Virus record (IMG/VR): IMGVR_UViG_3300028969_000096
Location: 1-18,913 of that record
Source: a virus
Taxonomy: Duplodnaviria > Heunggongvirae > Uroviricota > Caudoviricetes
Length of the DNA stretch: 18,913 bases
Reading direction: 5' to 3' (one strand)
Positions 778-15,057 of this stretch are shown here, in pieces (position 1 is the stretch's first letter; each line of letters starts with the position of its first letter). The translations under genes and the position numbers were made by a program. Under the pieces are notes generated by a model. It had not been told where the DNA came from. It did no database searches and was given only the letters and a program-made list of their open reading frames with translations.

Positions 778-1773
778 TCAGGCCAGCACACCAATCGCCA
801 GTGCGCGATCGATAAAACGAAATATCAGCTCCAGCTGGGAGCCATACTTCTCTTCAAATGCCACGGTATCCGCATGCAGTTCGTCGTGGTGTTTTCTGCA
901 CAAAGGCAGCACAAAAAGGTCATGCGCTTTTGTACCCATTCCACCCTGACCATGGCCTATCAGATGATGCGGATCATCAGCTGGCTTTCCACAACATGCA
1001 CACGGCTGCGTCTTAACCCAGCGCGTGTACTGTTCATTAACCCAGCGACGACGTTTGGGGCGTAACATAAAAGACTCCGGCGACTCCGGATCCACTTTCA
1101 GCGCCAGCACCTTTTTCGCTTTATCCTGGATAATGCTGGTGGCAGGAACCGAAGGCACAAGGTCACTTTCCCGGGTGACAGACGGCAAAACAGACTTCGG
1201 TAATCTCAGTGCCTTACGGGCTGCGCTTTCCGGTAAGGCATCCGCCAGGTCATTACGAACCAGCCACCAGCACAGTTCCGGCATTGTCACGGCATGGTTA
1301 TCATTAAAATCGAGATCCCGACGGACTACAGACAACACCCAACGGGCACAGTTATCCGTTGCCATTGATTCCAGCCGCTCCGTGAACTGATCACGTAACT
1401 GATTATCGCAGTGCCAGCACAGACGGATTGCGCCCGGCGCGTGTCGCATTGTGGTCATGTTCTCGCTGTGCCAGTCGGAATGAGGCCACTGGCAGCCTTT
1501 TTCACGAAGTAACCAGCTTTCAAGACATTCCACCCCACCAGCACGACGAATCACTGCCTCATTACGGAACACGGCCCGAACGGCAGGATCATCCGCCAGC
1601 GGTTGTGATGCCGCGGGAACGGCACCACTGGCGAAAGATGAATAATGCTCCGGCTCAGGCTCCAGCAGTACACGCCCCTGCATAAACAGGGGCATCAGCT
1701 CTGAACCGGGCCTGAACAATACGATCCCCATACGCGGGGCAATTTCAGGGGTCAATAGTGCTCTCACGGTCAC
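778..1773 (-). CDS. DUF968-family protein (YdfU-like) with C-terminal Cys/His HNH-like motif
   Basis: A 331-aa ORF whose C-terminus reads [21 protein letters not shown]...[12 protein letters not shown]. It sits immediately upstream of Q, as ydfU does next to quuQ in prophage Qin from memory. The start may be the GTG at 1773 or at 1767. Confidence 0.5.
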
Positions 1774-1774
1774 C

Positions 1775-2572
1775 TCAATGAACGGTATCGAGCAGCTTTA
1801 ACAGCTCAGGGAATCGGGATTCGAAGAAATGCGGCTGCGTCTCGCGCGGATTTGCGGGACTGGTGATGTTCTTGCCGAACATGCAGCCTTTCGCTGTCAG
1901 CGACCAGAATTTTTTGATGTTGTTAATCGCGGTACGGCTGTATCGTTCGCGCTGCTCGACGATCCCCAGCTTCACCATCTGGTGATATGCCTGATTAGCT
2001 GTCAGGCGGATACCATACTGCTTCAGCAGTGCACTCAGTGACAGCGTGGGACGGCTTGAGCCATCAGGCGCGTCAGCAGGAGCATCAATGGCATAGCGCG
2101 GTGCCAGATTCGGTAAGCCAACAGCCTCCTGGAGTTTCTGACAGGCACCAAGCACTGAAGAGTTAGACAGGTTTAACTCCCGGCGCATAAAGTCCAGCAG
2201 AATCACGCCAGCCTGCATCTTGTCAGCAGCCTGCCCGGATAATTTTTCCGATGCGCTGGTTACCATATCGAAAGTACGGATCACCTTCAGATGGAATGAC
2301 GGGCTGATCCACATTGCATAGGCATACACCAGTTCTTTGCAGACATACGTCCCCTGGTTATTTCCGCCACGAATAACGTTAACTGGCTCTATATTGACCG
2401 AGTTGCAAATCTGCAACTCGCTTATTAAACGTTCAGTTTGCTCATTGCGGAGCCAGAATGCAGGCTTATGCTTATCCAGAGAACCGGCAGCCCTGTGCAG
2501 ATCGTTCAGGCTGTAACGCCCATAAGCATCACGACGAACTTCAATACCATCAATGACCATCAGATTATTCAT
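1775..2572 (-). CDS. KilA-N domain protein (antirepressor/Bro-like)
   Basis: The N-terminus MNNLMVIDGIEVRRDAYGRYSLNDLHRAAG...AFWLRNEQTERLI...YVCKELVYAYAMWISPSFHLKVI is a typical KilA-N/ORF6N domain. I chose the start at 2572 because AGGAG lies 9 nt upstream; the track ORF begins at 2605. Confidence 0.6.
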   Translation of the reverse strand: MNNLMVIDGIEVRRDAYGRYSLNDLHRAAGSLDKHKPAFWLRNEQTERLISELQICNSVNIEPVNVIRGGNNQGTYVCKELVYAYAMWISPSFHLKVIRTFDMVTSASEKLSGQAADKMQAGVILLDFMRRELNLSNSSVLGACQKLQEAVGLPNLAPRYAIDAPADAPDGSSRPTLSLSALLKQYGIRLTANQAYHQMVKLGIVEQRERYSRTAINNIKKFWSLTAKGCMFGKNITSPANPRETQPHFFESRFPELLKLLDTVH

Positions 2573-2591
2573 ACTTCGTTTCTCCTCTTGA

Positions 2592-2981
2592 TCAGGCGGC
2601 TGCACCCGCCGTTTTCTCGTACTTACTGATAGTGATCTCGACCTTCCCTTCCGGGATAACCGGTCCCCACTCCACCAGCATTCTTTTCACCTGGCTGTCG
2701 TCTTCCCACACACCCGCGTGGGTCAGGGCGTCAAACAGCGCCTTGTTATAGTTGTCCAGATCGCGGATCCGGTTATCCGGAGGAAACAACACGATCTCCA
2801 CTGAAGCAGGTGCCGACGTTGGTTTCGGCAGACGACGTAACTGCTCAACTATTGCTGTGCACGCCGCACTCTGGAATTTTCGCCCCGCCGCGCTTATCAG
2901 GCTCTTACCAGCAAATGCCACTTTGTTGGGGTGTCGCCAGTAGGTGTTCACGCTGGGTGGAAAAGGCAGAATCAGCTTCAT
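2592..2981 (-). CDS. rusA: Holliday-junction resolvase RusA
   Basis: The 129-aa product starts MKLILPFPPSVNTYWRH and contains RDLDNYNKALFDALTHAGVWEDDSQV, both characteristic of the RusA family. Its start codon overlaps the stop of the upstream gene. Confidence 0.8.
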   Translation of the reverse strand: MKLILPFPPSVNTYWRHPNKVAFAGKSLISAAGRKFQSAACTAIVEQLRRLPKPTSAPASVEIVLFPPDNRIRDLDNYNKALFDALTHAGVWEDDSQVKRMLVEWGPVIPEGKVEITISKYEKTAGAAA

Positions 2982-3304
2982 ACTTTCAGCCCCCTCTCAT
3001 GTAACCAGTGGGCTGCACGCAGCCTGGCGTTTTCCTCACCAGCAAGCAGTGCGCGGATAATCCCGGCCACCTCGCTGTCGTCGTCCTTCACCGCGGTATG
3101 AAGCGTGATGCCCCGGGCCACGCCACGCTTTATCGTGATGACGCCTTTTTTCTCCAGTGCGCGAAGATGCTCCACCGCTGCATTCACTGAACGGTATCCC
3201 AGCATGGTAGCCACCTCCTGATTGGTTGGCGGGAAGCCACGTTCTTTCTGGTAAGAAATCAGCATATCCAGCACCTGCTGCTGGCATTGAGTTAACGTCG
3301 TCAT
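2978..3304 (-). CDS. LexA N-terminal DNA-binding-domain-like protein with no S24 peptidase domain
   Basis: The product LTQCQQQVLDMLISYQKERGFPPTNQEVATMLGYRSVNAAVEHLRALEKKGVITIKRGVARGITL aligns by eye with the LexA winged-helix domain (…[32 protein letters not shown]…). No Ser/Lys peptidase domain follows. I place the start at the ATG at 3304, which overlaps the upstream TAA as TAATG. Confidence 0.55.
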   Translation of the reverse strand: MTTLTQCQQQVLDMLISYQKERGFPPTNQEVATMLGYRSVNAAVEHLRALEKKGVITIKRGVARGITLHTAVKDDDSEVAGIIRALLAGEENARLRAAHWLHERGLKV

Positions 3305-3798
3305 TAAGCCCCCACGTAATTCCCTGACAGATACCACTCTTCACCCGATACAGCGCGCTTGCTGCTTTTCCGTAAACACCGCTCACGACGCGCAAGAAAA
3401 TTGTTTCGCTCTTGCTGGGAGTGGCTTTCACGGAATGCCGCCATCCACACCGTTGCAGCACGACGGTATAAGCCCCTGGACTCCAGTTCTTCCGCCTGGC
3501 GGGTCAGGCACAAAATCACCCGGGGATCGTTAGTGCCGACATAGAAATTGCGCACAGGTCTGGATTCACGAACTGGTTGCGGTTCCGGCTCCTGCGGTAT
3601 CTCAGTCAGCCGCGGGAAATGTCTGCGTGTATCCCCTTCACAACGGTGAGCCACACGCCCACTCTGACGTAACTTGCTTGCTGACTGCAGAACGCGCTGT
3701 CGTGAGTAACCTGCAAAAGCATCCGCAATGTCTCCGGAAGTACACCCCGGATGGGCTTCAATGAATTTCTGAACGTCATTCAAAAGACTCATGATCAC
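3304..3798 (-). CDS. Putative PerC-family-like regulator
   Basis: The C-terminal motif LESRGLYRRAATVWMAAFRESHSQQERNNFLARRERCL resembles the PerC/Pch signature (GLWRRAA…W…RRE.CL) as I recall it. The start overlaps the O-like stop in an ATGA arrangement. The family assignment is tentative. Confidence 0.4.
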   Translation of the reverse strand: MIMSLLNDVQKFIEAHPGCTSGDIADAFAGYSRQRVLQSASKLRQSGRVAHRCEGDTRRHFPRLTEIPQEPEPQPVRESRPVRNFYVGTNDPRVILCLTRQAEELESRGLYRRAATVWMAAFRESHSQQERNNFLARRERCLRKSSKRAVSGEEWYLSGNYVGA

Positions 3799-4736
3799 CC
3801 CCTGAATCCTGCCGGGATCTGGCTGTAGTCCACGTTGTCGTAACTGGCTTTGAAGTACGGGTCTTCGCGTTTTTCGGTGTACGTGCTGACGGACGGCGAT
3901 AAGCGCAGGGAAAGCTCATCCCATTTTTCCCGCAGCTTCGACGGGCTGAGCACGTTACGGCACCAGAACGGATCGCGACTGACGCGGCTGTACATCTCGC
4001 AGATTTGTTTATGAGTACGACCATCCTGCACACACATCAGGCGAATTTCGTTTGCCCAGGCTATCCAGTTCGGTTCTTTGGGACGAACCACCTCGCCGTC
4101 ACATTCGGCGGCATGCTCGTACAGGGCGATGATTTTTTTCCAGAGCCACTGTGCGCAGGTCAAATCATCCTGCGTCCCCCACTGGCGCTTTTTAGGGCTG
4201 AATACAACCGCATCAGGATGGCGAGTTAAAAAATCCTGTTCAGCCGTCTGCGTGTCCGGTTGCGAAGCGTCCGGACGAGAAGTTTTTTTATCTGACGGAT
4301 CATGTTTTGATTTTACTGACGGATCCCCACCAGATTCTGACGGGTGAAAACCCGCTTTTTTGCCAGATTTCGACGCATCAAATTTTGACGGGTCAGATTT
4401 TGATGCGTCAGATTTTGACGGGTCAGAATCTGACAGTTGAGAAAATGCCGCTGCCTGAAGCTTCGCAACGTTAAGCTGATAAACATTCGACGCATTGCGG
4501 TTACCCTGGCGACGCGCCCTACGCGTTAACCAGCCTTCTGCTTCCAGCCGTGCGATAGCCGTTCTGACGGTACTCATCCCCGCGCCAATCTGGCGGGCAA
4601 TGGTTTCAATTGATGGCCAGCACACACCTTCGTCATTACTGAAATCAGCCAGGCGGGCCATAATTGCCACGCTGGATAATTTCATGCCTGATGCAGCGCA
4701 ACCATCCCATACATAGCCGGTTAATTTAGTGCTCAT
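3795..4736 (-). CDS. Replication initiator (lambda O-like) with N-terminal winged-helix and repeat-encoded linker
   Basis: The N-terminus SVAIMARLADFSNDEGVCWPSIETIARQIGAGMSTVRTAIARLEAEGWL is a winged-helix typical of phage replication initiators. The central DPSKSDASKSDPSKFDASKSG is encoded by tandem DNA iterons. GAGG lies 7 nt upstream of the ATG at 4736. Confidence 0.6.
   Translation of the reverse strand: MSTKLTGYVWDGCAASGMKLSSVAIMARLADFSNDEGVCWPSIETIARQIGAGMSTVRTAIARLEAEGWLTRRARRQGNRNASNVYQLNVAKLQAAAFSQLSDSDPSKSDASKSDPSKFDASKSGKKAGFHPSESGGDPSVKSKHDPSDKKTSRPDASQPDTQTAEQDFLTRHPDAVVFSPKKRQWGTQDDLTCAQWLWKKIIALYEHAAECDGEVVRPKEPNWIAWANEIRLMCVQDGRTHKQICEMYSRVSRDPFWCRNVLSPSKLREKWDELSLRLSPSVSTYTEKREDPYFKASYDNVDYSQIPAGFRG
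4289..4438. repeat. Iteron array, candidate phage origin of replication inside the initiator gene
   Basis: Seen in sequence: six roughly 15-bp units. Copies at 4331-4345 (cagattctgacgggt), 4364-4378, 4379-4393 (caaattttgacgggt), 4394-4408 (cagattttgatgcgt), 4409-4423 (cagattttgacgggt) and 4424-4438. Degenerate CTGACGGATC copies sit at 4292-4301 and 4316-4325. The organisation parallels ori-lambda inside O. Confidence 0.55.
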
Positions 4737-4745
4737 GACCGACCT

Positions 4746-5084
4746 CTATTTCCCTGAATTTACGACGAAACTGTTCGAGCGGGCTGAAGCACTCATGCTC
4801 ATAGCCTTCGCGGAGGTAGATAACACGTTGTGTTTCCGGTTCCCAACGAATGACTCTGACGGGCACTCCGTAGTGATCTTTGAACCAGCGGTTAACTTGT
4901 CGCAAAGGACTGTCTCCTTCTGCCGGTTGAAATCACCCACAGCCCACTCAGCAAAGCTGTGGGTTACAATTTCCCTGTCACCTGGTACATTCACTGCATA
5001 GCAATATTCCACCTTCGCTTTTCCACCCGGTACAGGAAGCGCAATCAGTTGCGAGCGACGGTAGTGTGTTGTTAAACTGTTCAT
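4746..5084 (-). CDS. Hypothetical protein (112 aa)
   Basis: The ORF fills the gap between the CII-like and O-like genes. Its ATG overlaps the upstream TGA as ATGA, and GGAG lies upstream. No recognisable motif. A competing plus-strand ORF (4729-5001) is considered less likely from operon context. Confidence 0.4.
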
Positions 5085-5743
5085 GCGTTAGTTTCTCCAC
5101 AGTCACGACACGCCACGGCGCCCGGAGCTGCACACTCGCGGGCGTCATTACTTTCTGAAATGCAAAAGATTTTGTAGACCAGTGCTGCATGCTCCTGCAG
5201 CTTCGAAATTGAGAGATACAGCTCGTCGTTAATTGCTGTCTTCTCATGCGGTTCCACTACACCGTCTTCGATTGCTGAACGAATCTGTTTTGAATAACTG
5301 CCGATCTGTTCAATGACTTCCAGCAGACGCTGGTTAATATCGGCGTTGTCCACATCCTCGACGTCAGGAAGAGACACAAATACGCCATTTGCAGACTGCG
5401 CCACAGCATCAGCAATGAAGTGAGTGCCACCAGCACGCTGTAAAACCATTGCCCATCCCAGCGGGAAAATCTGATCGCCATCGGCACGAAGGCGGTTAAA
5501 TAATGCGTTCTCTGTTACGTCCAGCCAGTCAGCAGCTTCAGCGTAACCCCCCGGCAACGCTGCGATAGTTTTTCTGACAGCTTTCACGTACCACTCAGGC
5601 TGTTTTTCTATTTTCCAGTGATGCTTACCCACGGTTAACTCCTCGTTTCTGTGGTTACGTTTACGCAGCTGAACCGCTAACTTTTGAATAGCACTCAGGT
5701 AATCCATCATTTGGATTGGGGTAAATATCAGGACGCAGTTCAT
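5081..5743 (-). CDS. Putative CII-like / YdaT-like early regulator
   Basis: The ORF lies directly downstream of the cro-like gene on the same strand. The start is uncertain (5743, or the ATGs at 5710 and 5707) and either choice overlaps the 3' end of cro. The function is assigned by position only. Confidence 0.35.
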
Positions 5744-5924
5744 GAGGGGTCACGGACCAGTTTCCCAACTCACAAAGTTGTAAAACCCGTTCTGACGGGA
5801 CTTGATTGTTAATTACCCAATTAGCGACGGATTGAGTGGACTTAAAACCAAAGTGACGGGCTACTTCAGATAAAGATTTTCCCGCAGCTTTTACTGCTTT
5901 CTCTGTGTAGTTTTGAGATGACAT
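5661..5924 (-). CDS. Cro-like HTH repressor (YdaS-like)
   Basis: An 87-aa product with the HTH KSLSEVARHFGFKSTQSVANWV. It is divergent from the cI-like gene, and the SD GGAGAAAGG precedes the ATG at 5924. Confidence 0.65.
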   Translation of the reverse strand: MSSQNYTEKAVKAAGKSLSEVARHFGFKSTQSVANWVINNQVPSERVLQLCELGNWSVTPHELRPDIYPNPNDGLPECYSKVSGSAA

Positions 5925-6040
5925 ACCTTTCTCCTCTGAAATTCAGAGGGATGATGCTACTTAAAATAGCAGAATGCAACTACTTAAAATAGAAATGACT
6001 AGCGTATGTGATGCGAGTAACCTTCTACCTATGGTAGAAG
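5925..6040. promoter_or_regulatory. Divergent cI/cro control region with candidate operators
   Basis: Seen in sequence: a 17-bp perfect palindrome cctctgaaAttcagagg (5933-5949), a second 17-bp palindrome ttctaccTATggtagaa (6021-6037), and two copies of ctacttaaaatag (5957-5969 and 5980-5992). Promoter positions were not resolved. Confidence 0.5.
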
Positions 6041-6735
6041 AACAGAAGTATCCAGATTTCGCCAAGAGACTAAACGAGCTAATGACAAACAAGGGAATTT
6101 CTGTCACCCAACTCAAAAGTCTTGTGGGCGTTACATATGAAATGGCGCGGCGATACACAATCGGCGCTGCGAAGCCTCGTGCCTCTGTCATGAATAAACT
6201 TGCATTGGCTCTGGGGGTATCAGCTTCATATTTAGAATATGGTGTTGGCGAGAGAGAAGGATGTAAGGAAATGGCAAGCATCCCCAATCCAACAAAACCC
6301 GATGTATACAGGATAGAAGTTTTGGATCTTAGCGTTAGCGCAGGACCTGGAACCTATATGCTTTCAGACTATGTTGATGTGCTCTACGCCATTGAGTTCA
6401 CAACAGAGCATGCCCGTTCTCTTTTCGGTAATCGTTCTCAAGATGATATTAAAGTTATGACTGTAAATGGCGACAGCATGTCCCCTACTCTAGTTTCCGG
6501 AGATCGACTGTTTGTCGACATTTCTGTTCGCAACTTCCAAACTGATGGTGTTTACTCTTTCGTTTATGGTAAGACGTTCCACGTTAAACGTCTACAAATG
6601 CAAGGCAACAAACTCGCCGTTCTTTCGGATAATCCAGCCTATGAGAAATGGTACATTGATGAGAAGTCCCAAGATCAACTTTATGTTATGGGCAAAGCAT
6701 TGATACACGAATCAATTAAATACAACCGGCTTTAG
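5974..6735 (+). CDS. cI-like repressor (HTH-XRE plus S24 LexA-like peptidase domain)
   Basis: HTH: FAKRLNELMTNKGISVTQLKSLVGVTYEMARRYTIG. Peptidase region: GDSMSPTLVSGDRLFVD...FHVKRLQ..., giving the Ser/Lys dyad context. The true start may be the ATG at 5995 or 6031 rather than 5974. Confidence 0.8.
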   Translation: MQLLKIEMTSVCDASNLLPMVEEQKYPDFAKRLNELMTNKGISVTQLKSLVGVTYEMARRYTIGAAKPRASVMNKLALALGVSASYLEYGVGEREGCKEMASIPNPTKPDVYRIEVLDLSVSAGPGTYMLSDYVDVLYAIEFTTEHARSLFGNRSQDDIKVMTVNGDSMSPTLVSGDRLFVDISVRNFQTDGVYSFVYGKTFHVKRLQMQGNKLAVLSDNPAYEKWYIDEKSQDQLYVMGKALIHESIKYNRL

Positions 6736-6905
6736 TTCTTCGTTTAGACTATAGAACTAAAGGTGAAAAAATAATATTTATCAAGCAAGTGCTATTACTA
6801 ATAGTTGTTTTACTCTCTTATTTTTATTAAACATTATCATTAACAATATAAAATAATCACCCAGCGTAAATTACAATATGCTGGGGGTCGAAAGGATAGA
6901 GAAAT

Positions 6906-7982
6906 ATGACAAAATCAATTTGTTTTTTTAATCATAAAGGTGGGGTAAGTAAAACCACAACAACCTTCAATCTTGGATGGGCACTTGCGGATGAAGGCAA
7001 GAAAGTATTGATGGTTGACCTTGATTCGCAATGTAATCTAACAGGAATGGTTCTTGGCTATGAAAAGATTGATGAGGGTTTAGATTCTTTTTATTCTAGC
7101 AGAGATAACTTAACTCTTGGACCTATTGTAGAATATTTGATTAATGGCGGACAACCTGAAGCATACCTTGAAAAAGAAACGGGAAAATTACACCCTACAC
7201 TGCATGAAAACCTTCTGCTTCTTCCCGGACATTTAGATGTTTCGGACTTAGATTCACAGATAAGTGTTTCTCTAAAAATTGCTGCTGGTATTCCTGCTAC
7301 AAGAAATATACCAGGGAACCTGCCAAAAATATTACAGCTAATCGCCATGAAGAATAATATTGATTACATTCTTTATGATCTCAGCCCTAATGTTGGAGGT
7401 TTAAATGAAGTAGTTCTCATGTCAAGTGACTATTTTATCGTACCTGTAGCTCCAGACTTTTTTTGCTGGCAAGCAATTCGCTCTCTCTCAAAAAATATAC
7501 CTCGCTGGCACAAAGAATTAGCATTATTTAAAGAAAATAATGATGGTAACTCTTCACAATCAATTAAAAATGCACCGCAGTTTCTAGGTATGATTCAGCA
7601 GAGATACAGGCCGCGTAAAGGAGCACCTGTAAAATCTTTCGAAAAATGGATGGCAGCTATCCGTGATGCTGTTGATTCGATCTTAGTGCCAAATCTAGAA
7701 AAAATTACCTGCATAATTCCACGAGATAAAGTGCAACATGCAATTAACAAAACAACAGTCAGTGGAGATTTATCAGCCTATGATCTTGCGCATATTTCCG
7801 ATTTCAACTCATTAATCGCAATAAGCCAACAACTAGCGACACCTGTTTTCTCCATCAGTGATCAGCAAATTCGCGATTCAGGGCAATTTGGGCATGCCTT
7901 AAATACAATGAAATCAAGCAGAGACGCCTTTAACGAACAATTTAAAGGGCTGGCTCAACGAGTTCTAGAACTTACAAAGTAA
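6906..7982 (+). CDS. ParA/MinD-family P-loop ATPase (orphan, 358 aa)
   Basis: Deviant Walker A KGGVSKTT sits at the extreme N-terminus (MTKSICFFNHKGGVSKTTTTFNLGWALADEGKKVLMVDLDSQ). A Walker B-like region follows (ILYDLSPNVGG...YFIVPVAP). There is a long C-terminal extension of unknown type. The RBS AAAGGA precedes the ATG. The gene lies in a markedly AT-rich island directly downstream of cI. Confidence 0.8.
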   Translation: MTKSICFFNHKGGVSKTTTTFNLGWALADEGKKVLMVDLDSQCNLTGMVLGYEKIDEGLDSFYSSRDNLTLGPIVEYLINGGQPEAYLEKETGKLHPTLHENLLLLPGHLDVSDLDSQISVSLKIAAGIPATRNIPGNLPKILQLIAMKNNIDYILYDLSPNVGGLNEVVLMSSDYFIVPVAPDFFCWQAIRSLSKNIPRWHKELALFKENNDGNSSQSIKNAPQFLGMIQQRYRPRKGAPVKSFEKWMAAIRDAVDSILVPNLEKITCIIPRDKVQHAINKTTVSGDLSAYDLAHISDFNSLIAISQQLATPVFSISDQQIRDSGQFGHALNTMKSSRDAFNEQFKGLAQRVLELTK

Positions 7983-7989
7983 TGCATGT

Positions 7990-8022
7990 GCCCGGCCGCA
8001 TAACCGGGCTTTACTCTTCTTT
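7990..8022 (+). terminator. Intrinsic terminator after the ParA-like gene
   Basis: Stem gcccgg(7990-7995)/ccgggc(8004-8009) with an 8-nt loop, followed by tttactcttctttc. Confidence 0.5.
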
Positions 8023-8304
8023 CTCCCTGATTAATCTCATAAAAAACTCCCTCCTCATAATTCACTATGCTCAATACCTACTCCAACTTCGTGCGATATT
8101 TTCAGTTTACAGCATAGTAAATCAGCAAAAACATTTAACTTTCAATTAATTATAGAAAAATCATAGACAACAACAAATATCTACTTTTTGTTGTTGATTT
8201 TTGCTACTTTAAGTAGCAACATAATGTAAGCTATCACGGACAGGCAGGACGCCCACGAAGTAGCCGCCGGTGGCGTATGAATGACCGGATGATTCGTTAG
8301 CAAC

Positions 8305-8327
8305 AAAAAAGCGCCCTACAGGACGCT
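8305..8327 (-). terminator. Intrinsic terminator on the minus strand
   Basis: In minus-strand RNA: AGCGUCC-UGUA-GGGCGCU, a 7-bp stem with one U-G wobble, followed by UUUUUUGUUGC. It lies about 180 nt downstream of the 8506-9009 gene. Confidence 0.45.
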
Positions 8328-8505
8328 TAGCTCTTTAACAATCTTAGTATCCCCGTAACAAAAGAGGGTTCTATGGTCATATTCTGTGCTTACGTTCATC
8401 CTAATGGATTTTTTATCAGCACCAACCAACAAGACGAATTCTGGATTCTACTTAGTAAGCAGGTCGGATGGGGACGATTCTGTCTAATCCGACCAGAATC
8501 AGAAT

Positions 8506-9009
8506 TTACAGAGAATGGAGGGCTTTTTGAATTACGTGAAATACGTCCGGCAGATGGTCAAGCCCCTGACCAAGTAATCGAATCGTCAGCTGTTTTATGG
8601 CGTCGGCAGGAAGCGTTCGAAGCTGAGAGAGTAATTTCTTCTTATCTTCAGTCGTGGCAGAAGTAGAACTATTGATGATACGTTCAAGTTCACAGAGAGT
8701 CTCATCATGCAATCTTATTGTCATAATCCCAAGAATAGCTTTAAGACCTCCATCATCACGAATGAAATCAATTCCATCTTTAGTAATTCTTAATTCAGGA
8801 ATATTTATATTTATGCCATCCAAGTAATAATCAAGAGCATTCTTAATCAAGCCATGTTCTTCGAGATAAATTAAGTTCGAAATTAGGACATTATCATCTC
8901 CAAATGCGTCACGAACAGACTGCAACGCATCATCAGAAATTTCATAAGGATGAGCATCATACAGTATTTGTAACAACTGCCTTTGTGCACTTCTATCAAA
9001 TTTGTCCAT
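8506..9009 (-). CDS. Hypothetical protein, possibly a small winged-helix phage protein (DUF2513-like)
   Basis: A 167-aa ORF with GGTGA upstream of the ATG. The N-terminal two thirds have no competing ORF. The 3' third overlaps a plus-strand ORF (8373-8666) that has a strong RBS, so the boundaries and even the coding strand near 8506-8666 are unresolved. Confidence 0.45.
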   Translation of the reverse strand: MDKFDRSAQRQLLQILYDAHPYEISDDALQSVRDAFGDDNVLISNLIYLEEHGLIKNALDYYLDGININIPELRITKDGIDFIRDDGGLKAILGIMTIRLHDETLCELERIINSSTSATTEDKKKLLSQLRTLPADAIKQLTIRLLGQGLDHLPDVFHVIQKALHSL

Positions 9010-9333
9010 CTTAAATAATCACCATGTTATTGGGGGTATCAAGATTAACCGAATCCTTGTTGTTGGGGAATAACCAGGTCCACCTCGCCTGATGTGGCTA
9101 AAAGCAGGCACATAACAGCTAAGTATTTTCAACCAGAGAGAATCCTTAGCGTTGTGGTGAATGCGGCTCAGCGCACGCGGGTTAAGGTTGAGGCTGACAG
9201 TCGACCTTCTGTGGATACCCACCCGCCTGGTGTGCAACCTTCGCCAGGCACCGGGAGGCACCCGGCACCACAACAGCCACTGCTTTGGCGGTACCAGTTT
9301 GTACACTTGCTTCCGGCTGGCACCGCTCTTTTT

Positions 9334-9422
9334 ACAAAACAGAGAAGAGCATCACCGGACGACGGGCTCATAACCCAATCCATCCGGGCGGCTGCCACCG
9401 CAGGTGTTCTTCTCTGTTTTGT
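9334..9422 (+). repeat. Long hairpin: 15-bp perfect inverted repeat flanking a 59-nt structured loop, within a roughly 450-bp non-coding GC-rich region
   Basis: Seen in sequence: acaaaacagagaaga (9334-9348) is the exact reverse complement of tcttctctgttttgt (9408-9422), with inner pairing cacc/ggtg. Immediately upstream is a terminator-like hairpin gcggtacc...ggcaccgc followed by tcttttt (9295-9333). No convincing ORF covers 9019-9470. Confidence 0.6.
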
Positions 9423-9470
9423 GGAGAAACCAACCGACCTTGCAGGGTCGATATGATGAGGAGCAGCAAA

Positions 9471-9833
9471 ATGGCTAGCGAACGCAGTACTGATGTGCAG
9501 GCATTTATCGGGGAGCTGGACGGCGGCGTATTTGAAACCAAAATCGGCGCAGTTCTCAGTGAGGTCGCTTCCGGTGTGATGAACACGAAAACCAAAGGGA
9601 AGGTCTCACTCAATCTGGAAATCGAACCGTTTGATGAGAACCGTGTGAAAATCAAACACAAACTCTCATATGTTCGCCCAACTAACCGCGGGAAAATTTC
9701 CGAAGAAGACACCACCGAAACGCCGATGTATGTCAATCGCGGTGGTCGCCTGACTATTCTGCAGGAAGACCAGGGACAATTACTGACTCTTGCCGGTGAA
9801 CCTGACGGAAAACTCCGCGCAGCAGGTCGTTAA
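9471..9833 (+). CDS. YfdP-like prophage protein
   Basis: A 120-aa product starting MASERSTDVQAFIGELDGG, with SD GAGGAG 8 nt upstream. It is the first gene of a block that matches the CPS-53 yfdP-yfdT gene order and sizes from memory. Confidence 0.55.
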   Translation: MASERSTDVQAFIGELDGGVFETKIGAVLSEVASGVMNTKTKGKVSLNLEIEPFDENRVKIKHKLSYVRPTNRGKISEEDTTETPMYVNRGGRLTILQEDQGQLLTLAGEPDGKLRAAGR

Positions 9834-9898
9834 TATCGTTCGTAATAAACTGATTATTTATCTCATCACTGAATATCTTTATATAGTGAGGACTTATT

Positions 9899-10723
9899 AT
9901 GTCTCAGAACTTAGACGCAACCGCAATTAATCAAATCCATGCCCTTATTTCTGCTCAGGGTGTTAATGAAATTATCAGTAAGATTGGTGCCGATGCTGTG
10001 GCATTGCCTGAGAATTTCCGCATTCATGATCTGGAAAAATTTAATTTAAATCGCTTCCGTTTCCGTGGTGCACTTTCCACTGCCAGCATCGATGATTTTA
10101 CCCGTTATTCTAAAGATCTTGCAGATGAAGGCACCCGCTGCTTTATCGATGCCGATAATATGCGTGCCGTCAGTGTGCTTAACCTGGGTACTATTGATGA
10201 GCCAGGTCACGCAGATAACACTGCCACTCTCAAACTGAAAAAGACAGCACCGTTCTCTGCTCTGTTGTCTGTTAACGGCGAGCGTAACTCCCAGAGGTCA
10301 CTGGCAGAATGGATCGAAGACTGGGCCGACTACCTTGTGGGCTTTGATGCTAATGGTGACGCCATTCAAGCAACAAAAGCGGCTGCGGCAGTCCGTAAAA
10401 TCACGATTGAAGCAAACCAGACCGCTGATTTTGAAGATAATGACTTCAGCGGCAAACGCTCCCTGATGGAGTCTGTCGAAGCGAAGACCAAAGACATTAT
10501 GCCAGTGGCATTTGAATTTAAATGCGTTCCGTTTGAAGGTCTGAAAGAACGTCCGTTTAAATTACGCCTCAGCATTATCACTGGCGATCGTCCTGTACTG
10601 GTTCTGCGCATTATTCAGCTGGAAGCGGTGCAGGAAGAAATGGCTAACGAATTTCGTGATCTGCTTGTTGAGAAATTCAAAGACAGCAAAGTAGAAACCT
10701 TTATTGGTACTTTCACCGCCTGA
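9899..10723 (+). CDS. YfdQ-like protein (DUF2303 family)
   Basis: A 274-aa product, the same length as K-12 YfdQ as I recall. It sits in the yfdP-Q-R-S-T-like order. Confidence 0.6.
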
Positions 10724-10735
10724 TTTCATTACTGC

Positions 10736-10757
10736 AAATGCCCCTGCGGGGGCATTT
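10736..10757 (+). terminator. Hairpin, possible attenuator or weak terminator
   Basis: A 9-bp perfect stem aaatgcccc/ggggcattt with a short loop, between the YfdQ-like and YfdR-like genes. No strong U-tract follows. Confidence 0.3.
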
Positions 10758-10850
10758 ATGGAAACGTAATTAACTCAATAATCACCGGATGGTGAGGGCT
10801 TCCTTTTACCAGAATTCAGCGCGGTGCAGTGCATATACGTGGAGAACAAA

Positions 10851-11387
10851 ATGTCATTTATTAAAACTTTTTCCGGGAAGCATTTTTATTATGACAAGAT
10901 AAATAAAGACGACATCGATATTAACGATATCGCGGTTTCCCTTTCAAATATCTGTCGCTTTGCCGGTCATCTTTCGCACTTCTACAGCGTCGCCCAACAT
11001 GCGGTTCTTTGCAGCCAGCTGGTGCCGCAGGAATTTGCTTTTGAAGCGTTAATGCATGATGCAACAGAAGCGTATTGCCAGGACATTCCCGCACCACTGA
11101 AACGCCTTCTTCCTGACTATAAACGGATGGAAGAAAAAATAGACGCCGTAATCCGTGAGGAATACGGGTTACCCCCAGTTATGAGTACACCCGTGAAATA
11201 TGCCGATCTCATCATGCTGGCAACCGAACGCCGCGATCTCGGGCTTGATGATGGCTCTTTCTGGCCTGTACTGGAAGGCATCCCGGCAACAGAGATGTTC
11301 AACGTGATTCCACTGGCACCGGGTCATGCCTACGGGATGTTTATGGAACGTTTTAACGATTTATCGGAGTTACGCAAATGCGCATGA
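10851..11387 (+). CDS. HD-domain phosphohydrolase (YfdR-like 5'-deoxynucleotidase family)
   Basis: The HD motif context is HAVLCSQLV...ALMHDATEAYCQDIPAPLKRLL. Starting at the ATG at 10851 (SD GGAGAA) gives 178 aa; the track ORF begins at 10824. Confidence 0.65.
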   Translation: MSFIKTFSGKHFYYDKINKDDIDINDIAVSLSNICRFAGHLSHFYSVAQHAVLCSQLVPQEFAFEALMHDATEAYCQDIPAPLKRLLPDYKRMEEKIDAVIREEYGLPPVMSTPVKYADLIMLATERRDLGLDDGSFWPVLEGIPATEMFNVIPLAPGHAYGMFMERFNDLSELRKCA

Positions 11388-11740
11388 ATGTTTTCGAAAT
11401 GGAAGGGTTTCTTCGCGGGAAATGTGTACCGCGAGATCTGAAAGTGAATGAAACAAATGCTGAGTACCTGTTACGTAAATTCGACGCGCTTGAAGCTAAA
11501 TGTGCGGCACTGGAAAACAAAATAATACCAGTGTCAGCTGAACTGCCACCAGCAAATGAAAGTGTTCTGTTATTTGATGCTAATGGAGAAGGCTGGCTGA
11601 TTGGCTGGCGTTCTCTCTGGTACACCTGGGGACAAAAAGAAACCGGAGAATGGCAGTGGACATTTCAGGTCGGGGACCTTGAAAACGTCAATATCACTCA
11701 CTGGGCAGTAATGCCAAAAGCACCGGAGGCTGGAGCATAA
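11378..11740 (+). CDS. YfdS-like protein (120 aa)
   Basis: Assigned by size and position in the conserved block. The start overlaps the end of the upstream gene. Confidence 0.5.
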   Translation: MRMNVFEMEGFLRGKCVPRDLKVNETNAEYLLRKFDALEAKCAALENKIIPVSAELPPANESVLLFDANGEGWLIGWRSLWYTWGQKETGEWQWTFQVGDLENVNITHWAVMPKAPEAGA

Positions 11741-12045
11741 TGACCACATTTACCAATAAAGAACTGATTAAAGAAATCAAAGAACGAATCAGCAGCCTAG
11801 AGGTTCGAGACGATATTGAGCGCCGTGCTTATGAAATCGCACTCGTATCTCTGGAAGTAGAGCCAGATGAACGCGAAGCCTATGAATTATTCATGGAAAA
11901 GCGTTTCGGTGACTTAGTAGATCGTCGGAGAGTAAAAAACGGCGATAACGAATACATGGCATGGGATATGACTCTCGGTTGGATCGTCTGGCAGCAACGA
12001 GCTGGTATCCATTTTTCAACAATGACACAGCAAGAGGTGAAATAA
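11740..12045 (+). CDS. YfdT-like protein (101 aa)
   Basis: Assigned by size and position. Its stop overlaps the next start as TAATG. Confidence 0.5.
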   Translation: MTTFTNKELIKEIKERISSLEVRDDIERRAYEIALVSLEVEPDEREAYELFMEKRFGDLVDRRRVKNGDNEYMAWDMTLGWIVWQQRAGIHFSTMTQQEVK

Positions 12046-12416
12046 TGGAGCCATACAGCCTCACACTCGATGAGGCCTGTCAGTTTCTTAAGATATCCAG
12101 ACCAACCGCCACCAACTGGATACGAACAGGCCGCCTACAGGCAACACGTAAAGATCCAACCAAGCCAAAATCTCCTTACCTCACAACACGGCAAGCTTGC
12201 ATTGCGGCGCTTCAGTCTCCGCTGCATACTGTCCAAGTGAGCGCGGGTGATGGCATAACAGAGGAAAGAAAATGTCACTCTTCCGCAGAAATGAAATATG
12301 GTATGCCTCGTATTCGCTCCCGGGCGGGAAACGAATTAAGGAATCTCTTGGCACAAAGGACAAGCGGCAAGCTCAGGAGTTGCACGACAAGCGAAAAGCA
12401 GAACTCTGGCGAGTAG
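12045..12416 (+). CDS. Excisionase-like HTH protein (Xis/AlpA-type)
   Basis: The N-terminus [31 protein letters not shown] is an excisionase-type HTH. It lies immediately upstream of int. The 3' extent is uncertain because the frame runs 145 nt into int. Confidence 0.45.
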
Positions 12417-13435
12417 AAAAGCTAGGGGATTTACCTGATGTCACTTTTGAAGAGGCCTGCCTAAGATGGCTTGAGGAAAAAGCTGATAAAAAATCTCTCG
12501 ATTCAGATAAAAGCCGGATTGAGTTCTGGCTTGAACATTTTGAGGGTATAAGGCTTAAAGATATCTCGGAGGCAAAGATTTACTCTGCTGTAAGCAGAAT
12601 GCATAACAGAAAGACGAAAGAAATATGGAAACAGAAAGTTCAGGCCGCCATCAGGAAAGGTAAAGAACCGCCTGTTTATGAACCAAAGCCAGTATCAACT
12701 CAGACAAAGGCAAAGCATCTTGCCATGATAAAGGCCATTCTCCGTGCTGCAGAACGCGACTGGAAGTGGCTGGAAAAAGCGCCTGTCATCAAGATACCAG
12801 CGGTCAGAAACAAGCGAGTCAGATGGCTGGAAAAGGAGGAAGCAAAACGCCTTATTGATGAGTGCCCCGAACCACTGAAATCTGTCGTCAAGTTTGCGCT
12901 GGCAACTGGTCTGAGAAAGTCGAACATCATAAATCTGGAATGGCAACAAATCGACATGCAGCGACGAGTTGCCTGGGTGAATCCAGAAGAGAGCAAATCA
13001 AACCGCGCCATTGGTGTGGCGCTGAACGATACCGCCTGTAAAGTGTTGCGTGATCAAATAGGCAAGCATCACAAATGGGTGTTTGTACATACCAAGGCGG
13101 CTAAGCGAGCAGATGGAACATCAACGCCTGCGGTCAGGAAGATGCGCATCGACAGCAAGACATCATGGCTATCAGCTTGTCGTCGTGCAGGAATTGAAGA
13201 TTTCCGTTTCCATGACCTCAGACACACCTGGGCAAGCTGGCTGATCCAGTCAGGCGTCCCATTATCTGTGCTTCAGGAAATGGGCGGATGGGAGTCCATA
13301 GAAATGGTTCGTAGGTATGCTCACCTTGCGCCTAATCATTTGACAGAGCATGCAAGGAAAATAGACGACATTTTTGGTGATAATGTCCCAAATATGTCCC
13401 ACTGTGGAATTATGGAGGATATAAAGAAGGCGTAA
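12272..13435 (+). CDS. Tyrosine site-specific integrase (lambdoid, DLP12 IntD-like)
   Basis: A 387-aa product starting MSLFRR. The C-terminal catalytic region reads [39 protein letters not shown], giving the R...H-x-x-R...Y signature. Its 3' end is 15 bp from the tRNA-Arg fragment. Confidence 0.9.
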
Positions 13436-13450
13436 CTGATTGAATTGTAA

Positions 13451-13495
13451 TGGTGCGCCCTGCAGGATTCGAACCTGCGGCCCACGACTTAGAAG
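13451..13495 (-). pseudogene. 3' fragment (about 45 nt) of a tRNA-Arg(UCU) gene (argU-like); prophage att core
   Basis: The reverse complement reads CTTCTAAGTCGTGGGCCGCAGGTTCGAATCCTGCAGGGCGCACCA, which runs from the anticodon loop through the T-arm and acceptor 3' strand to CCA. No matching 5' acceptor strand (GCGCCCT) or D-arm lies upstream, so this is a fragment and not a complete tRNA. Confidence 0.7.
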
Positions 13496-13917
13496 TTCCT
13501 AGAACGACATTTTAAGTCAACAACTTACCGCGCCATCTCTGCGCTCACACGTCCCACTACCTCAAAACATGTAAAGCCTTGCAAGCCATTGTGAGGCCTT
13601 ATGTGTCTCAGTTTTGTCCCTCTTTTTTGTACCAAAAAACATAGCAATTGAGGATAAACCTCATGCTATTTTCGCTTATATGCCTCTAAAGGCATGGCGC
13701 TTAAATAGATAAAAACACCACAAAAGCATAAAAAACCACACAGTAAAACCGCAACATAAAACAATAACAGATAATTAAACCAAAAACAGATAGCGCATTG
13801 TGATAATCATTCAATACTAAACAAAATATAAACAGTGGAGCAATATGTAATTGACTCATTAAGTTAGATATAAAAAATACATATTCAATCATTAAAACGA
13901 TTGAATGGAGAACTTTT

Positions 13918-14871
13918 ATGCGGGCGAAACTTCTGGGAATAGTCCTGACAACCCCTATTGCGATCAGCTCTTTTGCTTCTACCGAGACTATATCGTTTAC
14001 TCCTGACAACATAAATGCGGACATTAGTCTTGGAACTCTGAGCGGAAAAACAAAAGAGCGCGTTTATCTAGCTGAAGAAGGAGGCCGAAAAGTCAGTCAA
14101 CTCGACTGGAAATTCAATAACGCTGCAATTATTAAAGGTGCAATTAATTGGGATTTGATGCCCCAGATATCTATTGGGGCTGCGGGCTGGACTACTCTCG
14201 GCAGCCGAGGTGGCAATATGGTCGATCAGGACTGGATGGATTCCAGTAACCCCGGAACCTGGACAGATGAAAGTAGGCACCCTGATACACAACTCAATTA
14301 TGCCAACGAATTTGATCTGAATATCAAAGGCTGGCTCCTCAACGAACCCAATTACCGCCTGGGACTCATGGCCGGATATCAGGAAAGCCGTTATAGCTTT
14401 ACAGCCAGAGGTGGTTCCTATATCTACAGTTCTGAGGAGGGATTCAGAGATGATATCGGCTCCTTCCCGAATGGAGAAAGAGCAATCGGCTACAAACAAC
14501 GTTTTAAAATGCCCTACATTGGCTTGACTGGAAGTTATCGTTATGAAGATTTTGAGCTAGGTGGCACATTTAAATACAGCGGCTGGGTGGAAGCATCTGA
14601 TAACGATGAGCACTATGACCCAGGAAAAAGAATCACTTATCGCAGTAAAGTCAAAGACCAAAATTACTATTCTGTTGCAGTCAATGCAGGTTATTACGTA
14701 ACACCTAACGCAAAAGTTTATGTTGAAGGCGCATGGAATCGGGTTACGAATAAAAAAGGTAATACTTCACTTTATGATCACACTGATAACACTTCAGACT
14801 ACAGCAAAAATGGTGCAGGCATAGAAAACTATAACTTCATCACTACTGCTGGTCTTAAGTACACCTTTTAA
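13918..14871 (+). CDS. ompT: Outer-membrane protease OmpT (omptin)
   Basis: The 317-aa product MRAKLLGIVLTTPIAISSFASTETISFTPDNINADISLGTLSGK...AGLKYTF matches E. coli OmpT as I recall it almost residue for residue. An AT-rich upstream region and GGAG RBS precede it. Confidence 0.9.
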   Translation: MRAKLLGIVLTTPIAISSFASTETISFTPDNINADISLGTLSGKTKERVYLAEEGGRKVSQLDWKFNNAAIIKGAINWDLMPQISIGAAGWTTLGSRGGNMVDQDWMDSSNPGTWTDESRHPDTQLNYANEFDLNIKGWLLNEPNYRLGLMAGYQESRYSFTARGGSYIYSSEEGFRDDIGSFPNGERAIGYKQRFKMPYIGLTGSYRYEDFELGGTFKYSGWVEASDNDEHYDPGKRITYRSKVKDQNYYSVAVNAGYYVTPNAKVYVEGAWNRVTNKKGNTSLYDHTDNTSDYSKNGAGIENYNFITTAGLKYTF

Positions 14872-14890
14872 CGAAGTTAACCAGATTTTC

Positions 14891-14929
14891 TCCCCGGTGG
14901 TATTGTATAACCCCGGGGAATTTGTTTAC
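14891..14929 (+). terminator. Intrinsic terminator after ompT
   Basis: Stem tccccgg(14891-14897)/ccgggga(14913-14919) with a 15-nt loop, followed by aatttgttt. Confidence 0.4.
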
Positions 14930-15057
14930 AGTTACAAGTAGACAATATCCACTAATTTTGTAAGCATTTAACCTATGTCATAACGTGTAATCTCTTACCG
15001 CAACACAAGACCTCAATATATTCAAATCTTATCTTTATTCCGATATTCAGAGACACA

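What the first reader, a model, noticed from the sequence alone, without database searches (positions are those of the whole stretch)
6740..9010. Orphan ParA/MinD-like ATPase in the rexAB-equivalent slot downstream of cI, inside a low-GC island
Directly downstream of the cI-like repressor and on the same strand is a 358-aa ParA-family ATPase (6906-7982). Its Walker A sits at the very N-terminus and it has a long uncharacterised C-terminal extension. There is no ParB partner and no obvious parS. The segment is visibly AT-richer than the flanking prophage, which suggests a horizontally acquired moron. In lambda the equivalent position holds rexAB, an exclusion system expressed in the lysogen. 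Many lambdoid phages carry anti-phage cargo there. I do not know of a described defence system built on a standalone ParA-like ATPase, so this is a candidate for a new exclusion, defence or cell-cycle-interfering function. A degenerate partition module is the alternative.
Basis: partly seen in the sequence, partly recalled or inferred. Interest (0 to 1): 0.7.

Follow-up and report, generated by a model that had tools for sequence, protein, structure and literature searches.

The report
Prophage ParA-like ATPase, probable anti-phage gene
A lone ParA-type ATPase gene sits between the repressor gene and the left operator of an E. coli lambdoid prophage, and it is most likely an untested, distant relative of a single-gene anti-phage protein (GiPD474) described in Salmonella in 2025, not a DNA-partition gene.

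Summary
Window 6906-7982 (+) encodes a 358-aa ParA/MinD-class ATPase with an intact deviant Walker A at residues 11-17. It lies in a 37.6% GC island. It sits between a cI-like repressor and a newly located OL-type operator (8202-8218), so it occupies the true rexAB slot. No ParB gene or parS-like repeat array was found.

The "C-terminal extension" is not a separate domain. The model is one elaborated ParA fold.

GiPD474 (AEM, Nov 2025) is a standalone ParA-like ATPase downstream of cI in Gifsy-1, and it gives about 5-log protection against T4, Alf5 and Felix O1.

The window protein is only 22% identical to GiPD474. However, in Salmonella prophages its 73% orthologue and GiPD474 replace each other as a clean 1.3-kb cassette, behind 94%-identical repressors.

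The family is large (at least 539 species). It recurs downstream of five kinds of phage repressor, is almost absent from plasmids, and has one clade translationally coupled to a HEPN RNase gene.

Best reading: a lysogen-expressed defence moron built on an ATP-dependent dimer switch. Function and mechanism are untested. It is a new variant of a known kind, of moderate interest.

The parts
5955..5994 (.). OR-type operators: two 17-bp sites (TGCTACTTAAAATAGCA at 5955-5971; AACTACTTAAAATAGAA at 5978-5994) in the cro/cI intergenic region
   Evidence: 5 strand-matches in the window against 0.2 expected; none elsewhere except 8202-8218
6031..6735 (+). cI-like repressor (HTH_3 + Peptidase_S24). The longest ORF starts at 5974, but the RefSeq start corresponds to 6031 and leaves the operators outside the coding region
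6736..6905 (+). AT-rich (27% GC) spacer between cI and the ParA-like gene. It has a Shine-Dalgarno AAGGA about 9 nt before the ATG, no terminator-like site, and only a weak promoter-like match at 6828-6857. Co-transcription with cI or an own promoter is not resolved
6906..7982 (+). 358-aa ParA/MinD-class ATPase (RefSeq WP_000167381.1, 'ParA family protein'). Invariant across homologues: K11, K16 (deviant Walker A), D38/D40, D158. Family-specific invariant residues lie in the QQRYRPR (232-237) and DFNSLIA (299-305) stretches
7990..8009 (+). Intrinsic-terminator-like hairpin (6 G-C pairs; the following tract TTTACTCTTC is T-rich rather than a clean T run) 8 nt after the ParA stop codon. It ends the cI-ParA transcription unit before OL
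8177..8222 (.). OL-type operator region: perfect palindrome TGCTACTTTAAGTAGCA at 8202-8218 inside a 46-nt stretch that is an inverted copy (78%) of the OR region. It marks the left end of the immunity region
8309..8328 (-). Terminator-like hairpin followed by a T run on the minus strand, ending the 167-aa gene
8506..9009 (-). Separate, variable low-GC moron beyond OL: a 167-aa protein (phrog_3983) with an N-terminal winged-helix-like fold (weak matches only). It is not a partner of the ParA-like gene

Best explanation
The gene is a horizontally acquired moron of the prophage immunity region. It is probably expressed in the lysogen together with, or just downstream of, the repressor. Its most likely job is to protect the lysogen against infection by other phages, as a single-gene defence or superinfection-exclusion function.

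The protein is a ParA/MinD-type switch. ATP binding should make a sandwich dimer through the signature lysine K11, with K16, D38/D40 and D158 completing the catalytic site. The family-specific insertions and the conserved QQRYRPR and DFNSLIA stretches would then form the surface that engages a target.

In one clade of the family this switch is translationally coupled to a HEPN RNase. There it presumably gates a toxin. In the proteobacterial clade to which the window protein belongs there is no partner. The dimer itself must then do the work, either by binding or sequestering phage DNA or a phage replication/packaging protein, or by acting through a host factor.

What is shown: the anatomy, the fold, conservation of the catalytic residues, the position between cI and OL, recurrence in immunity regions, the cassette swap with GiPD474, the HEPN coupling in relatives, and the absence from plasmids.

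What is inferred: expression in the lysogen, the anti-phage phenotype, and every step of the mechanism.
For: 1. Position. The gene lies between cI and OL, ends in a terminator-like hairpin, and sits in a low-GC island.

2. Published analogue. GiPD474 is a 361-aa standalone ParA/AAA_31 protein directly downstream of cI in Gifsy-1. By deletion, complementation and expression in E. coli K-12 it gives about 5-log protection against T4, Alf5 and Felix O1, and it is highly transcribed in the lysogen (PMC12724215).

3. Cassette swap. I recovered the GiPD474 locus (L013:5723-6808) through a primer arm. Salmonella prophages carrying the 73%-identical orthologue of the window protein (P0010) are collinear with it at 91-97% identity. 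Collinearity runs up to the 3' end of cI and resumes about 80 bp after the ATPase stop. Only the ~1.3-kb ATPase cassette differs.

4. Recurrence. The family sits downstream of five kinds of repressor:
- an E. coli S24 repressor (window)
- a Salmonella 155-aa CI
- P22-like c2 in functional phages ST160/SE1, upstream of gene 24
- a Pseudomonas S24 repressor
- an Acinetobacter Arc-type protein

5. Other mobile contexts. One copy lies in an int-AlpA-primase island next to HicAB, DarTG and a type I R-M system. Another lies beside an Abi family gene on a Pantoea plasmid. Among 134 neighbours in 19 species, PADLOC finds AbiLi (2 proteins), capP (2) and one each of MzaA, DRT UG29, RmrA, PDC-M38A and type II and IIG restriction enzymes; Pfam finds a HerA-type helicase.

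6. HEPN coupling. 25 of about 80 species-level loci form one clade at 36-41% identity. They carry an adjacent or overlapping RiboL-PSP-HEPN gene, 0-11 nt from the end of the ParA match in 21 of the 25 loci. ParA/Soj-HEPN dyads were predicted to be conflict systems in 2013 (PMC3710099).

7. Purifying selection. The catalytic residues are invariant in 38 homologues. Against the Pantoea copy dN is 0.09 with dS saturated.

8. Not a partition gene. There is no ParB. The family is on 23 of 72,556 plasmids, and the ParA_partition score is below cut-off.
Against: No member of this family has a tested phenotype.

The protein is only 22% identical to GiPD474. It scores no better against the family profile than Soj does (52.9 against 56.6 bits), although over a much longer alignment. 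GiPD474 is a distant outgroup in the tree. The inference therefore rests on position and analogy.

PADLOC has no model for it beyond 38-residue P-loop matches.

Many close-clade members sit alone beside housekeeping genes such as prfC, rpoD and dnaJ rather than in prophages or defence islands. The enrichment of defence neighbours was not tested against a background.

The standalone protein has no recognisable effector domain.

All 109 E. coli copies belong to one prophage lineage, so they count as one observation.
Confidence: 0.6

Rival explanations
1. Lysogenic-conversion or regulatory function not aimed at phages. A MinD/FleN/McdA-like switch might modulate a host process such as division-site placement, transcription-factor activity or positioning of a cellular cargo, or might fine-tune the prophage's own lysis-lysogeny control.
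For: The fold is closest to ParA, McdA, MinD and FleN, all of which position or regulate cellular components. Many family members are solitary genes beside housekeeping genes. No effector domain is present.
Against: There is a clean cassette exchange with a proven defence gene. One clade is coupled to a HEPN RNase. The gene occurs in islands with TA, DarTG and R-M systems. Its distribution is patchy and horizontally transferred, with low GC in every host examined. The terminal helix (330-357) is predicted with high confidence (pLDDT 91-96 over the last 20 residues) and shows no strong amphipathic signal, so no MinD-like membrane-targeting helix is evident.
Confidence: 0.15
2. Orphan antitoxin or anti-defence gene. 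The ATPase derives from the ATPase partner of ParA-HEPN modules and is kept by phages to neutralise HEPN-type abortive-infection toxins of hosts or rival elements.
For: Full-length relatives at 36-41% identity are coupled to HEPN genes. Anantharaman et al. 2013 proposed that the ATPase is the antitoxin of such dyads.
Against: No HEPN-coupled member was found among the enterobacterial or other close-clade loci examined. The gene sits on the lysogen-expressed side of the immunity region rather than among early lytic genes. GiPD474, in the same slot, confers defence rather than counter-defence.
Confidence: 0.08
3. Degenerate or orphan partition ATPase: a remnant of a ParABS module, or a device that lets the phage genome persist as a plasmid.
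For: The gene is annotated 'ParA family protein' or 'ParA-like partition protein' in RefSeq and PHROGs. It has a ParA fold with intact catalytic residues.
Against: No ParB gene or repeat array lies nearby. The prophage is integrated at argU with its own integrase. The family is nearly absent from plasmids (23 of 72,556, one of them a mislabelled chromosome), and those copies lie in accessory regions. The ParA_partition score is 55.8 against a cut-off of 180. No conserved neighbour exists in 26 close-clade loci. Strong purifying selection argues against a decaying remnant.
Confidence: 0.05

Closest known systems
GiPD474 (STM474_RS13505), the Gifsy-1 immunity-region defence protein of S. Typhimurium 4/74 (Bosma, Noireaux & Bowden, AEM 2025; PMC12724215)
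   Different: Identity is only 22%. GiPD474 is a distant outgroup of the window family. Its Walker A reads GGVGKT rather than GGVSKT, and it has a 22-residue N-terminal leader. GiPD474 has a demonstrated phenotype; the window protein has none. The mechanism of both is unknown.
ParA/Soj-HEPN gene dyads predicted as toxin-antitoxin or conflict systems (Anantharaman et al. 2013, PMC3710099)
   Same: The ATPase of 25 such dyads found here is a full-length homologue (36-41% identity) of the window protein.
   Different: The window protein and its whole proteobacterial clade lack the HEPN partner. The partner found here matches Pfam HEPN_RiboL-PSP, whereas the 2013 paper names the MAE_18760 HEPN family for its ParA/Soj dyads. 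The dyads themselves are untested.
Lambda rexAB (lysogen-expressed exclusion genes between cI and OL)
   Same: Same map position and the same expected expression logic.
   Different: There is no sequence or fold relationship. It is one gene rather than two, and a cytoplasmic P-loop ATPase rather than a sensor plus membrane channel.
DIP2308 of Corynebacterium diphtheriae (PDB 3pg5, structural-genomics entry with no assigned function)
Canonical ParABS / MinD / McdA positioning ATPases
   Same: Same fold, deviant Walker A with signature lysine, and Walker A' and B aspartates.
   Different: There is no adaptor-protein gene, no centromere, and about 100 extra residues. Sequence similarity is limited to the P-loop region, and the family is almost absent from plasmids.

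Membership tests
ParA/MinD (SIMIBI, deviant Walker A) ATPase superfamily | Deviant Walker A KGGxxK[ST] with the N-terminal signature lysine | tested here: met
   KGGVSKT at residues 11-17. K11 and K16 are invariant in 38 homologues.
ParA/MinD (SIMIBI, deviant Walker A) ATPase superfamily | Walker A' and Walker B aspartates and the ParA fold | tested here: met
Canonical ParABS partition system | Cognate ParB or other centromere-binding protein gene adjacent to parA | tested here: not met
   The only downstream ORF is a 55-aa frame that runs through the terminator and has no Pfam match. No ParB appears in the window ORFs scanned or in the RefSeq annotation of the identical prophage. There is no conserved neighbour in 26 close-clade loci.
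Canonical ParABS partition system | parS/centromere repeat array near the operon | tested here: not met
   The only non-chance repeats in 5850-9400 are the three operator palindromes. A single divergent site could not be excluded.
Canonical ParABS partition system | Membership of a curated partition ParA model, and residence on plasmids or near chromosomal origins | tested here: not met
   NCBIfam ParA_partition scores 55.8 bits against a cut-off of 180, with only residues 5-43 aligned. The family is found on 23 of 72,556 plasmids.
GiPD474-type prophage defence ATPase | Single ParA/AAA_31 ORF of about 360 aa directly downstream of the repressor in a prophage immunity region | tested here: met
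   The layout is as described for GiPD474.
GiPD474-type prophage defence ATPase | Close sequence relationship to GiPD474 (the paper's enterobacterial clades) | tested here: not met
   22% identity, BLASTP E=1e-13. GiPD474 scores 52.9 bits against the window-family profile and is a long-branch outgroup. The paper states no numerical threshold.
GiPD474-type prophage defence ATPase | Occupies the same locus interchangeably with GiPD474 | tested here: met
   Shown for the 73% orthologue P0010. The flanks are 91-97% identical and only the ATPase cassette is replaced.
GiPD474-type prophage defence ATPase | Reduces plating of phages when expressed alone | not testable with these tools
   This needs plaque assays.
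ParA/Soj-HEPN dyad | HEPN RNase gene immediately downstream of the ATPase gene | tested here: not met
   Absent in the window and in the whole clade at 49% identity or above. Present in 25 more distant relatives.
Lambda RexAB | Position between cI and OL | tested here: met
Lambda RexAB | Homology to RexA or RexB | tested here: not met
   A scan against all of Pfam-A returns only ParA-type families.
Systems in PADLOC-DB v2 (2023) | Full-length match to a model of a known or candidate defence protein | tested here: not met
   Only P-loop matches, of 38 and 48 residues, to two PDC-M28B models. The same holds for HEPN-linked relatives, and GiPD474 has no match.

The most novel reading that the evidence does not exclude
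The window protein may represent a large, uncharacterised family of immune ParA-like switches, found in at least 539 species across many phyla. In this family one conserved ATP-dependent dimer module serves as the sensor. It is combined with exchangeable effectors: a RiboL-PSP-HEPN RNase in one clade, an unknown ~310-aa protein in another, and none in the proteobacterial clade. In the standalone phage-borne version the positioning ATPase itself would be the effector, for example by coating or mislocalising incoming phage DNA or its replication/packaging machinery. That would be a defence principle not yet described mechanistically. GiPD474 would then be an independent, convergent or very anciently diverged instance of the same idea.
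Probability: 0.25. Interest if true: 0.7.

Novelty: new variant of a known kind. Interest (0 to 1): 0.5.

Why it matters
If the protein defends, a family of more than 5,000 database proteins now labelled "ParA family protein" or "partition protein" would be re-annotated as immune genes. This includes copies in functional P22-like phages. The GiPD474 result would grow from a single Salmonella gene into a class.

The clean swap of two very distant ParA-like cassettes at one locus, together with the HEPN-coupled relatives, gives concrete handles on an unknown mechanism. The main questions are what a DNA-positioning ATPase senses and how it stops a phage without an obvious effector.

In practice the gene is present in about 2% of complete E. 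coli genomes, and its relatives occur in Salmonella. It could therefore affect susceptibility to therapeutic or biocontrol phages.

Tried and rejected
- PADLOC, NCBIfam and PHROGs scans gave only generic ParA labels.
- Rfam on the whole window found only IS009, far from the locus.
- A search with residues 205-358 alone against 1.84 billion representative proteins found 146 hits. They match the query near their own C-termini, and most are family-length or shorter; a few are longer and their N-termini were not examined. No use of this region in another protein type was evident.
- Foldseek against viral structures was uninformative.
- I looked for a hidden partner in the window's clade. All-vs-all clustering of neighbours in about 80 loci found none for the clade at 49% identity or above. 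The 55-aa ORF at 7982-8149 overlaps the terminator and has no match.
- I tested the 167-aa gene as a partner and rejected it. It lies beyond OL, it is replaced in strains with identical cI-ParA, and it occurs without ParA elsewhere.
- A membrane-targeting helix at the C-terminus looks unlikely: the terminal helix (330-357) is predicted with high confidence and shows no strong amphipathic signal.
- Literature searches found nothing on this family. I searched for the accession, for ParA-like with anti-phage, and for ParA with HEPN, and searched inside Vassallo 2022, Rousset 2022, DefensePredictor 2026 and two 2026 NAR papers.
- Brenes & Laub 2025 is not in the searchable library and was not checked.
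- A dN/dS ratio could not be given because dS is saturated.
Full report
**What is there**

The window is part of an E. coli lambdoid prophage integrated at argU. Positions 401-13495 are 99.6% identical to strain WP8-S17-ESBL-12, where RefSeq annotates:
- Q, DUF968, KilA-N, RusA, O-like and YmfL (cII-like) genes, and a YdaS-type cro, on one strand;
- an XRE/S24 repressor, a 'ParA family protein' (WP_000167381.1), yfdP-yfdT and intD on the other.

The finding's ORF is real: 6906-7982 (+), 358 aa, with no possible N-terminal extension. It matches Pfam AAA_31 (2e-29) and CbiA. Walker A KGGVSKT is at residues 11-17. The gene is 37.7% GC (GC3 27.6%), and the island 6736-9009 is 37.6%. The flanks are 53.4% to the left and 47.5% to the right.

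**The slot**

A 17-bp palindrome, TGCTACTTWAARTAGCA, occurs at 5955-5971 and 5978-5994, between cro and cI. It occurs once more, as a perfect palindrome, at 8202-8218. That is five strand-matches against 0.2 expected, and there are none elsewhere in the window. The 46 nt around the sites are inverted copies of each other.

These sites are OR and OL. The ParA-like gene therefore lies between cI and OL, which is where lambda carries rexAB. A G+C-rich terminator-like hairpin (7990-8009) closes the unit 8 nt after the stop codon. No terminator-like site separates cI from the gene.

The 167-aa gene at 8506-9009 is on the other strand and beyond OL. It has its own terminator-like hairpin (8328-8309) and is a different unit.

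**The protein**

Thirty-eight homologues at 60-88% identity are conserved along the whole length. Invariant residues include K11, K16, D38, D40 and D158, and most positions of the family-specific stretches QQRYRPR (232-237) and DFNSLIA (299-305).

Residues 205-358, searched alone against 1.84 billion representative proteins, find only 146 hits. These match the query near their own C-termini, and no use of the region in another protein type was evident. By sequence the closest solved relative is 3pg5. Canonical ParA, Soj and MinD align only around the P-loop.

**Not a partition gene**

- No ParB gene or repeat array lies nearby.
- The curated ParA_partition model scores 55.8 bits against a cut-off of 180.
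- tblastn finds the family on only 23 of 72,556 plasmids. One of these is a mislabelled chromosome, and a Pantoea copy lies beside an Abi family gene and umuDC.

**The literature changes the picture**

Bosma, Noireaux and Bowden (AEM, November 2025; PMC12724215) described GiPD474. It is a single 361-aa ParA/AAA_31-like ATPase in the immunity region of Gifsy-1 of S. Typhimurium 4/74. Deletion restores Felix O1 plating. Expression from a low-copy plasmid in Salmonella LT2 or E. coli K-12 gives about 5-log protection against T4 and Alf5, but none against T7, SP6 or S16. The gene is highly transcribed in the lysogen, and the mechanism is unknown.

**How the window protein relates to GiPD474**

I recovered the GiPD474 locus by searching one of the paper's knockout primer arms in IMG/VR. 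L013:5723-6808 encodes MDNGRVEATDRPTE..., with GGVGKT at residues 29-34, as the paper states.

The two proteins align over about 350 residues but at only 22% identity (E=1e-13). GiPD474 scores 52.9 bits against the window-family profile and is a long-branch outgroup in a neighbour-joining tree. It is a remote relative, not a family member.

The positional link is nevertheless very tight. Salmonella prophages carrying P0010, the 73% orthologue of the window protein, have a 155-aa CI that is 94% identical to the one upstream of GiPD474. blastn shows the two kinds of locus are collinear at 91-97% identity. Collinearity runs up to the 3' end of cI and resumes about 80 bp after the ATPase stop. Only the ~1.3-kb ATPase cassette differs.

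**Distribution and context of the window family**

More than 5,000 database proteins match. A scan of one genome per species confirms at least 539 species in many phyla, at 37-70% identity over the full length.

The gene lies directly downstream of the repressor, on the same strand, in several settings:
- four different Salmonella prophages;
- a Pseudomonas prophage with an S24 repressor;
- an Acinetobacter element with an Arc-type protein;
- functional P22-like phages ST160 and SE1, between c2 (plus a DUF3024 gene) and gene 24.

In Megalodesulfovibrio gigas it follows the primase of an int-AlpA-DUF3987 island and precedes HicAB, DarTG and a type I R-M system. In Mannheimia it sits in a small island with a RepB primase and ParE.

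The pattern is not universal. Of 26 close-clade loci, only three have an S24/HTH neighbour by Pfam, and many sit beside housekeeping genes. Among 134 neighbouring proteins in 19 species, PADLOC finds AbiLi (2), capP (2) and one each of MzaA, RmrA, PDC-M38A, DRT UG29 and two restriction enzymes; Pfam finds a HerA-type helicase. This is suggestive, but I could not test it against a background.

In E. coli the gene is present at 99% identity or above in 109 of 5,426 complete genomes. All copies are chromosomal, those examined belong to the same argU prophage lineage, and one is interrupted by IS3. Related phages with other cI alleles carry different cargo or nothing in the slot (PhiR29_1 and SfV).

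**An unexpected lead: partner genes**

Clustering the neighbours of about 80 loci showed that 25 of them form one clade at 36-41% identity, in Chloroflexota, Cyanobacteria, Acidobacteriota and others. They carry a same-strand gene of about 200-250 aa that lies 0-11 nt from the end of the ParA match in 21 of the 25 loci. It matches Pfam HEPN_RiboL-PSP.

Three further loci share an unannotated ~310-aa partner. The window's proteobacterial clade has no conserved partner.

Anantharaman et al. (2013) had predicted ParA/Soj-HEPN dyads to be toxin-antitoxin-like systems with the ATPase as antitoxin. One conserved NTPase combined with variable or absent effectors is the usual architecture of conflict systems.

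**Selection**

Against the 88%-identical Pantoea copy, dN is 0.09 while synonymous sites are saturated (74% nucleotide identity). All copies examined are 38-41% GC. The gene is maintained by selection and moves horizontally.

**Interpretation**

The most likely reading (about 0.6) is a lysogen-expressed, single-gene anti-phage moron that works as an ATP-dependent dimer switch. It is analogous to GiPD474 but belongs to a different and much larger family.

The rivals are:
- a host- or prophage-regulatory role (0.15);
- an orphan antitoxin or counter-defence role derived from the HEPN dyads (0.08);
- a degenerate partition function (0.05).

Nothing here shows a phenotype, and the mechanism is inferred throughout.

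**Verdict**

The novelty is reduced by the 2025 paper to a new variant of a known kind, and the interest is moderate (0.5). What remains of value is a testable, widespread family, the cassette-swap evidence, and the HEPN connection.

Noticed in passing
window 8506-9009 (-), with terminator-like hairpin 8328-8309 and promoter-like site 9042-9015: A 167-aa low-GC gene (phrog_3983) lies antisense in what should be the PL leader. The family is small and apparently confined to Enterobacterales (28 clusters). The AF2 model has pLDDT 79. The N-terminal half resembles PadR/YjcQ winged helices, but only weakly (Foldseek E >= 0.05). E. coli strains with identical cI and ParA carry a different 171-aa gene here (WP_000559922.1), and PhiR29_1 carries a 242-aa gene. 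This is a second variable cargo slot just outside OL.
   Followed up: partly
L064-L098 (25 loci, e.g. L074:8001-9639, L078:8001-9804): ParA-like plus RiboL-PSP-HEPN gene pairs occur in Chloroflexota, Cyanobacteria, Acidobacteriota, Spirochaetes and others, with the two genes 0-11 nt apart in 21 of the 25 loci. They are untested two-gene systems whose ATPase is a full-length homologue of the window protein. PADLOC has no model for either component.
   Followed up: partly
L051:9042-9971, L052:9050-9982, L067:1132-2148: A second conserved downstream partner of about 310-340 aa, with no Pfam match, is tightly coupled to a separate clade of the ATPase family.
   Followed up: no
window 5974-6031: The longest cI ORF starts at 5974 and would overlap the OR operators. 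The RefSeq start (window 6031) is more plausible.
   Followed up: partly
window 13451-13495 and 13496-18913: After the integrase there is only a partial tRNA-Arg 3' segment (an att core copy), and ARAGORN finds no tRNA. Identity to the reference argU junction ends at 13495. It is followed by ompT (13918-14871), an alpha/beta hydrolase (15058-16542), a methyltransferase and tail-fibre-assembly genes. The arrangement looks like a DLP12-like remnant, so the prophage appears to sit in tandem with another element.
   Followed up: partly
window 17854-18052 (-): Rfam IS009 RNA (RF02111, 227.8 bits, full length) lies inside the tail-fibre-assembly gene 17811-18395.
   Followed up: no
L101 (phage ST160) 3021-3362; one upstream neighbour in alignment A2: A DUF3024 gene lies between the repressor c2 and the ParA-like gene in the P22-like phage ST160 (SE1, per its annotation notes, has the similar orf24). 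One further close-clade locus also has a DUF3024 upstream neighbour. It may be an occasional accessory gene.
   Followed up: no
protein P0096 (472 aa, metagenome): A Klebsiella-type family member is fused to an N-terminal SHOCT-like domain (PF22746). This is one of the few architectures longer than the standard ~357 aa.
   Followed up: no
hit H1, E. coli strain 550 (NZ_CP058223.1): An IS3-family element lies within the 5600-9400 region of this strain, and the ParA match there starts only at base 27 of the gene. The gene appears to be disrupted in one of the 109 carrier genomes.
   Followed up: no
L103/L104 (Pantoea agglomerans) 3384-5504: The homologue of the 167-aa protein sits downstream of a DUF3800 gene and a 157-aa gene in an island next to folD. 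This is the same chromosomal neighbourhood as the E. coli argU prophage site.
   Followed up: no
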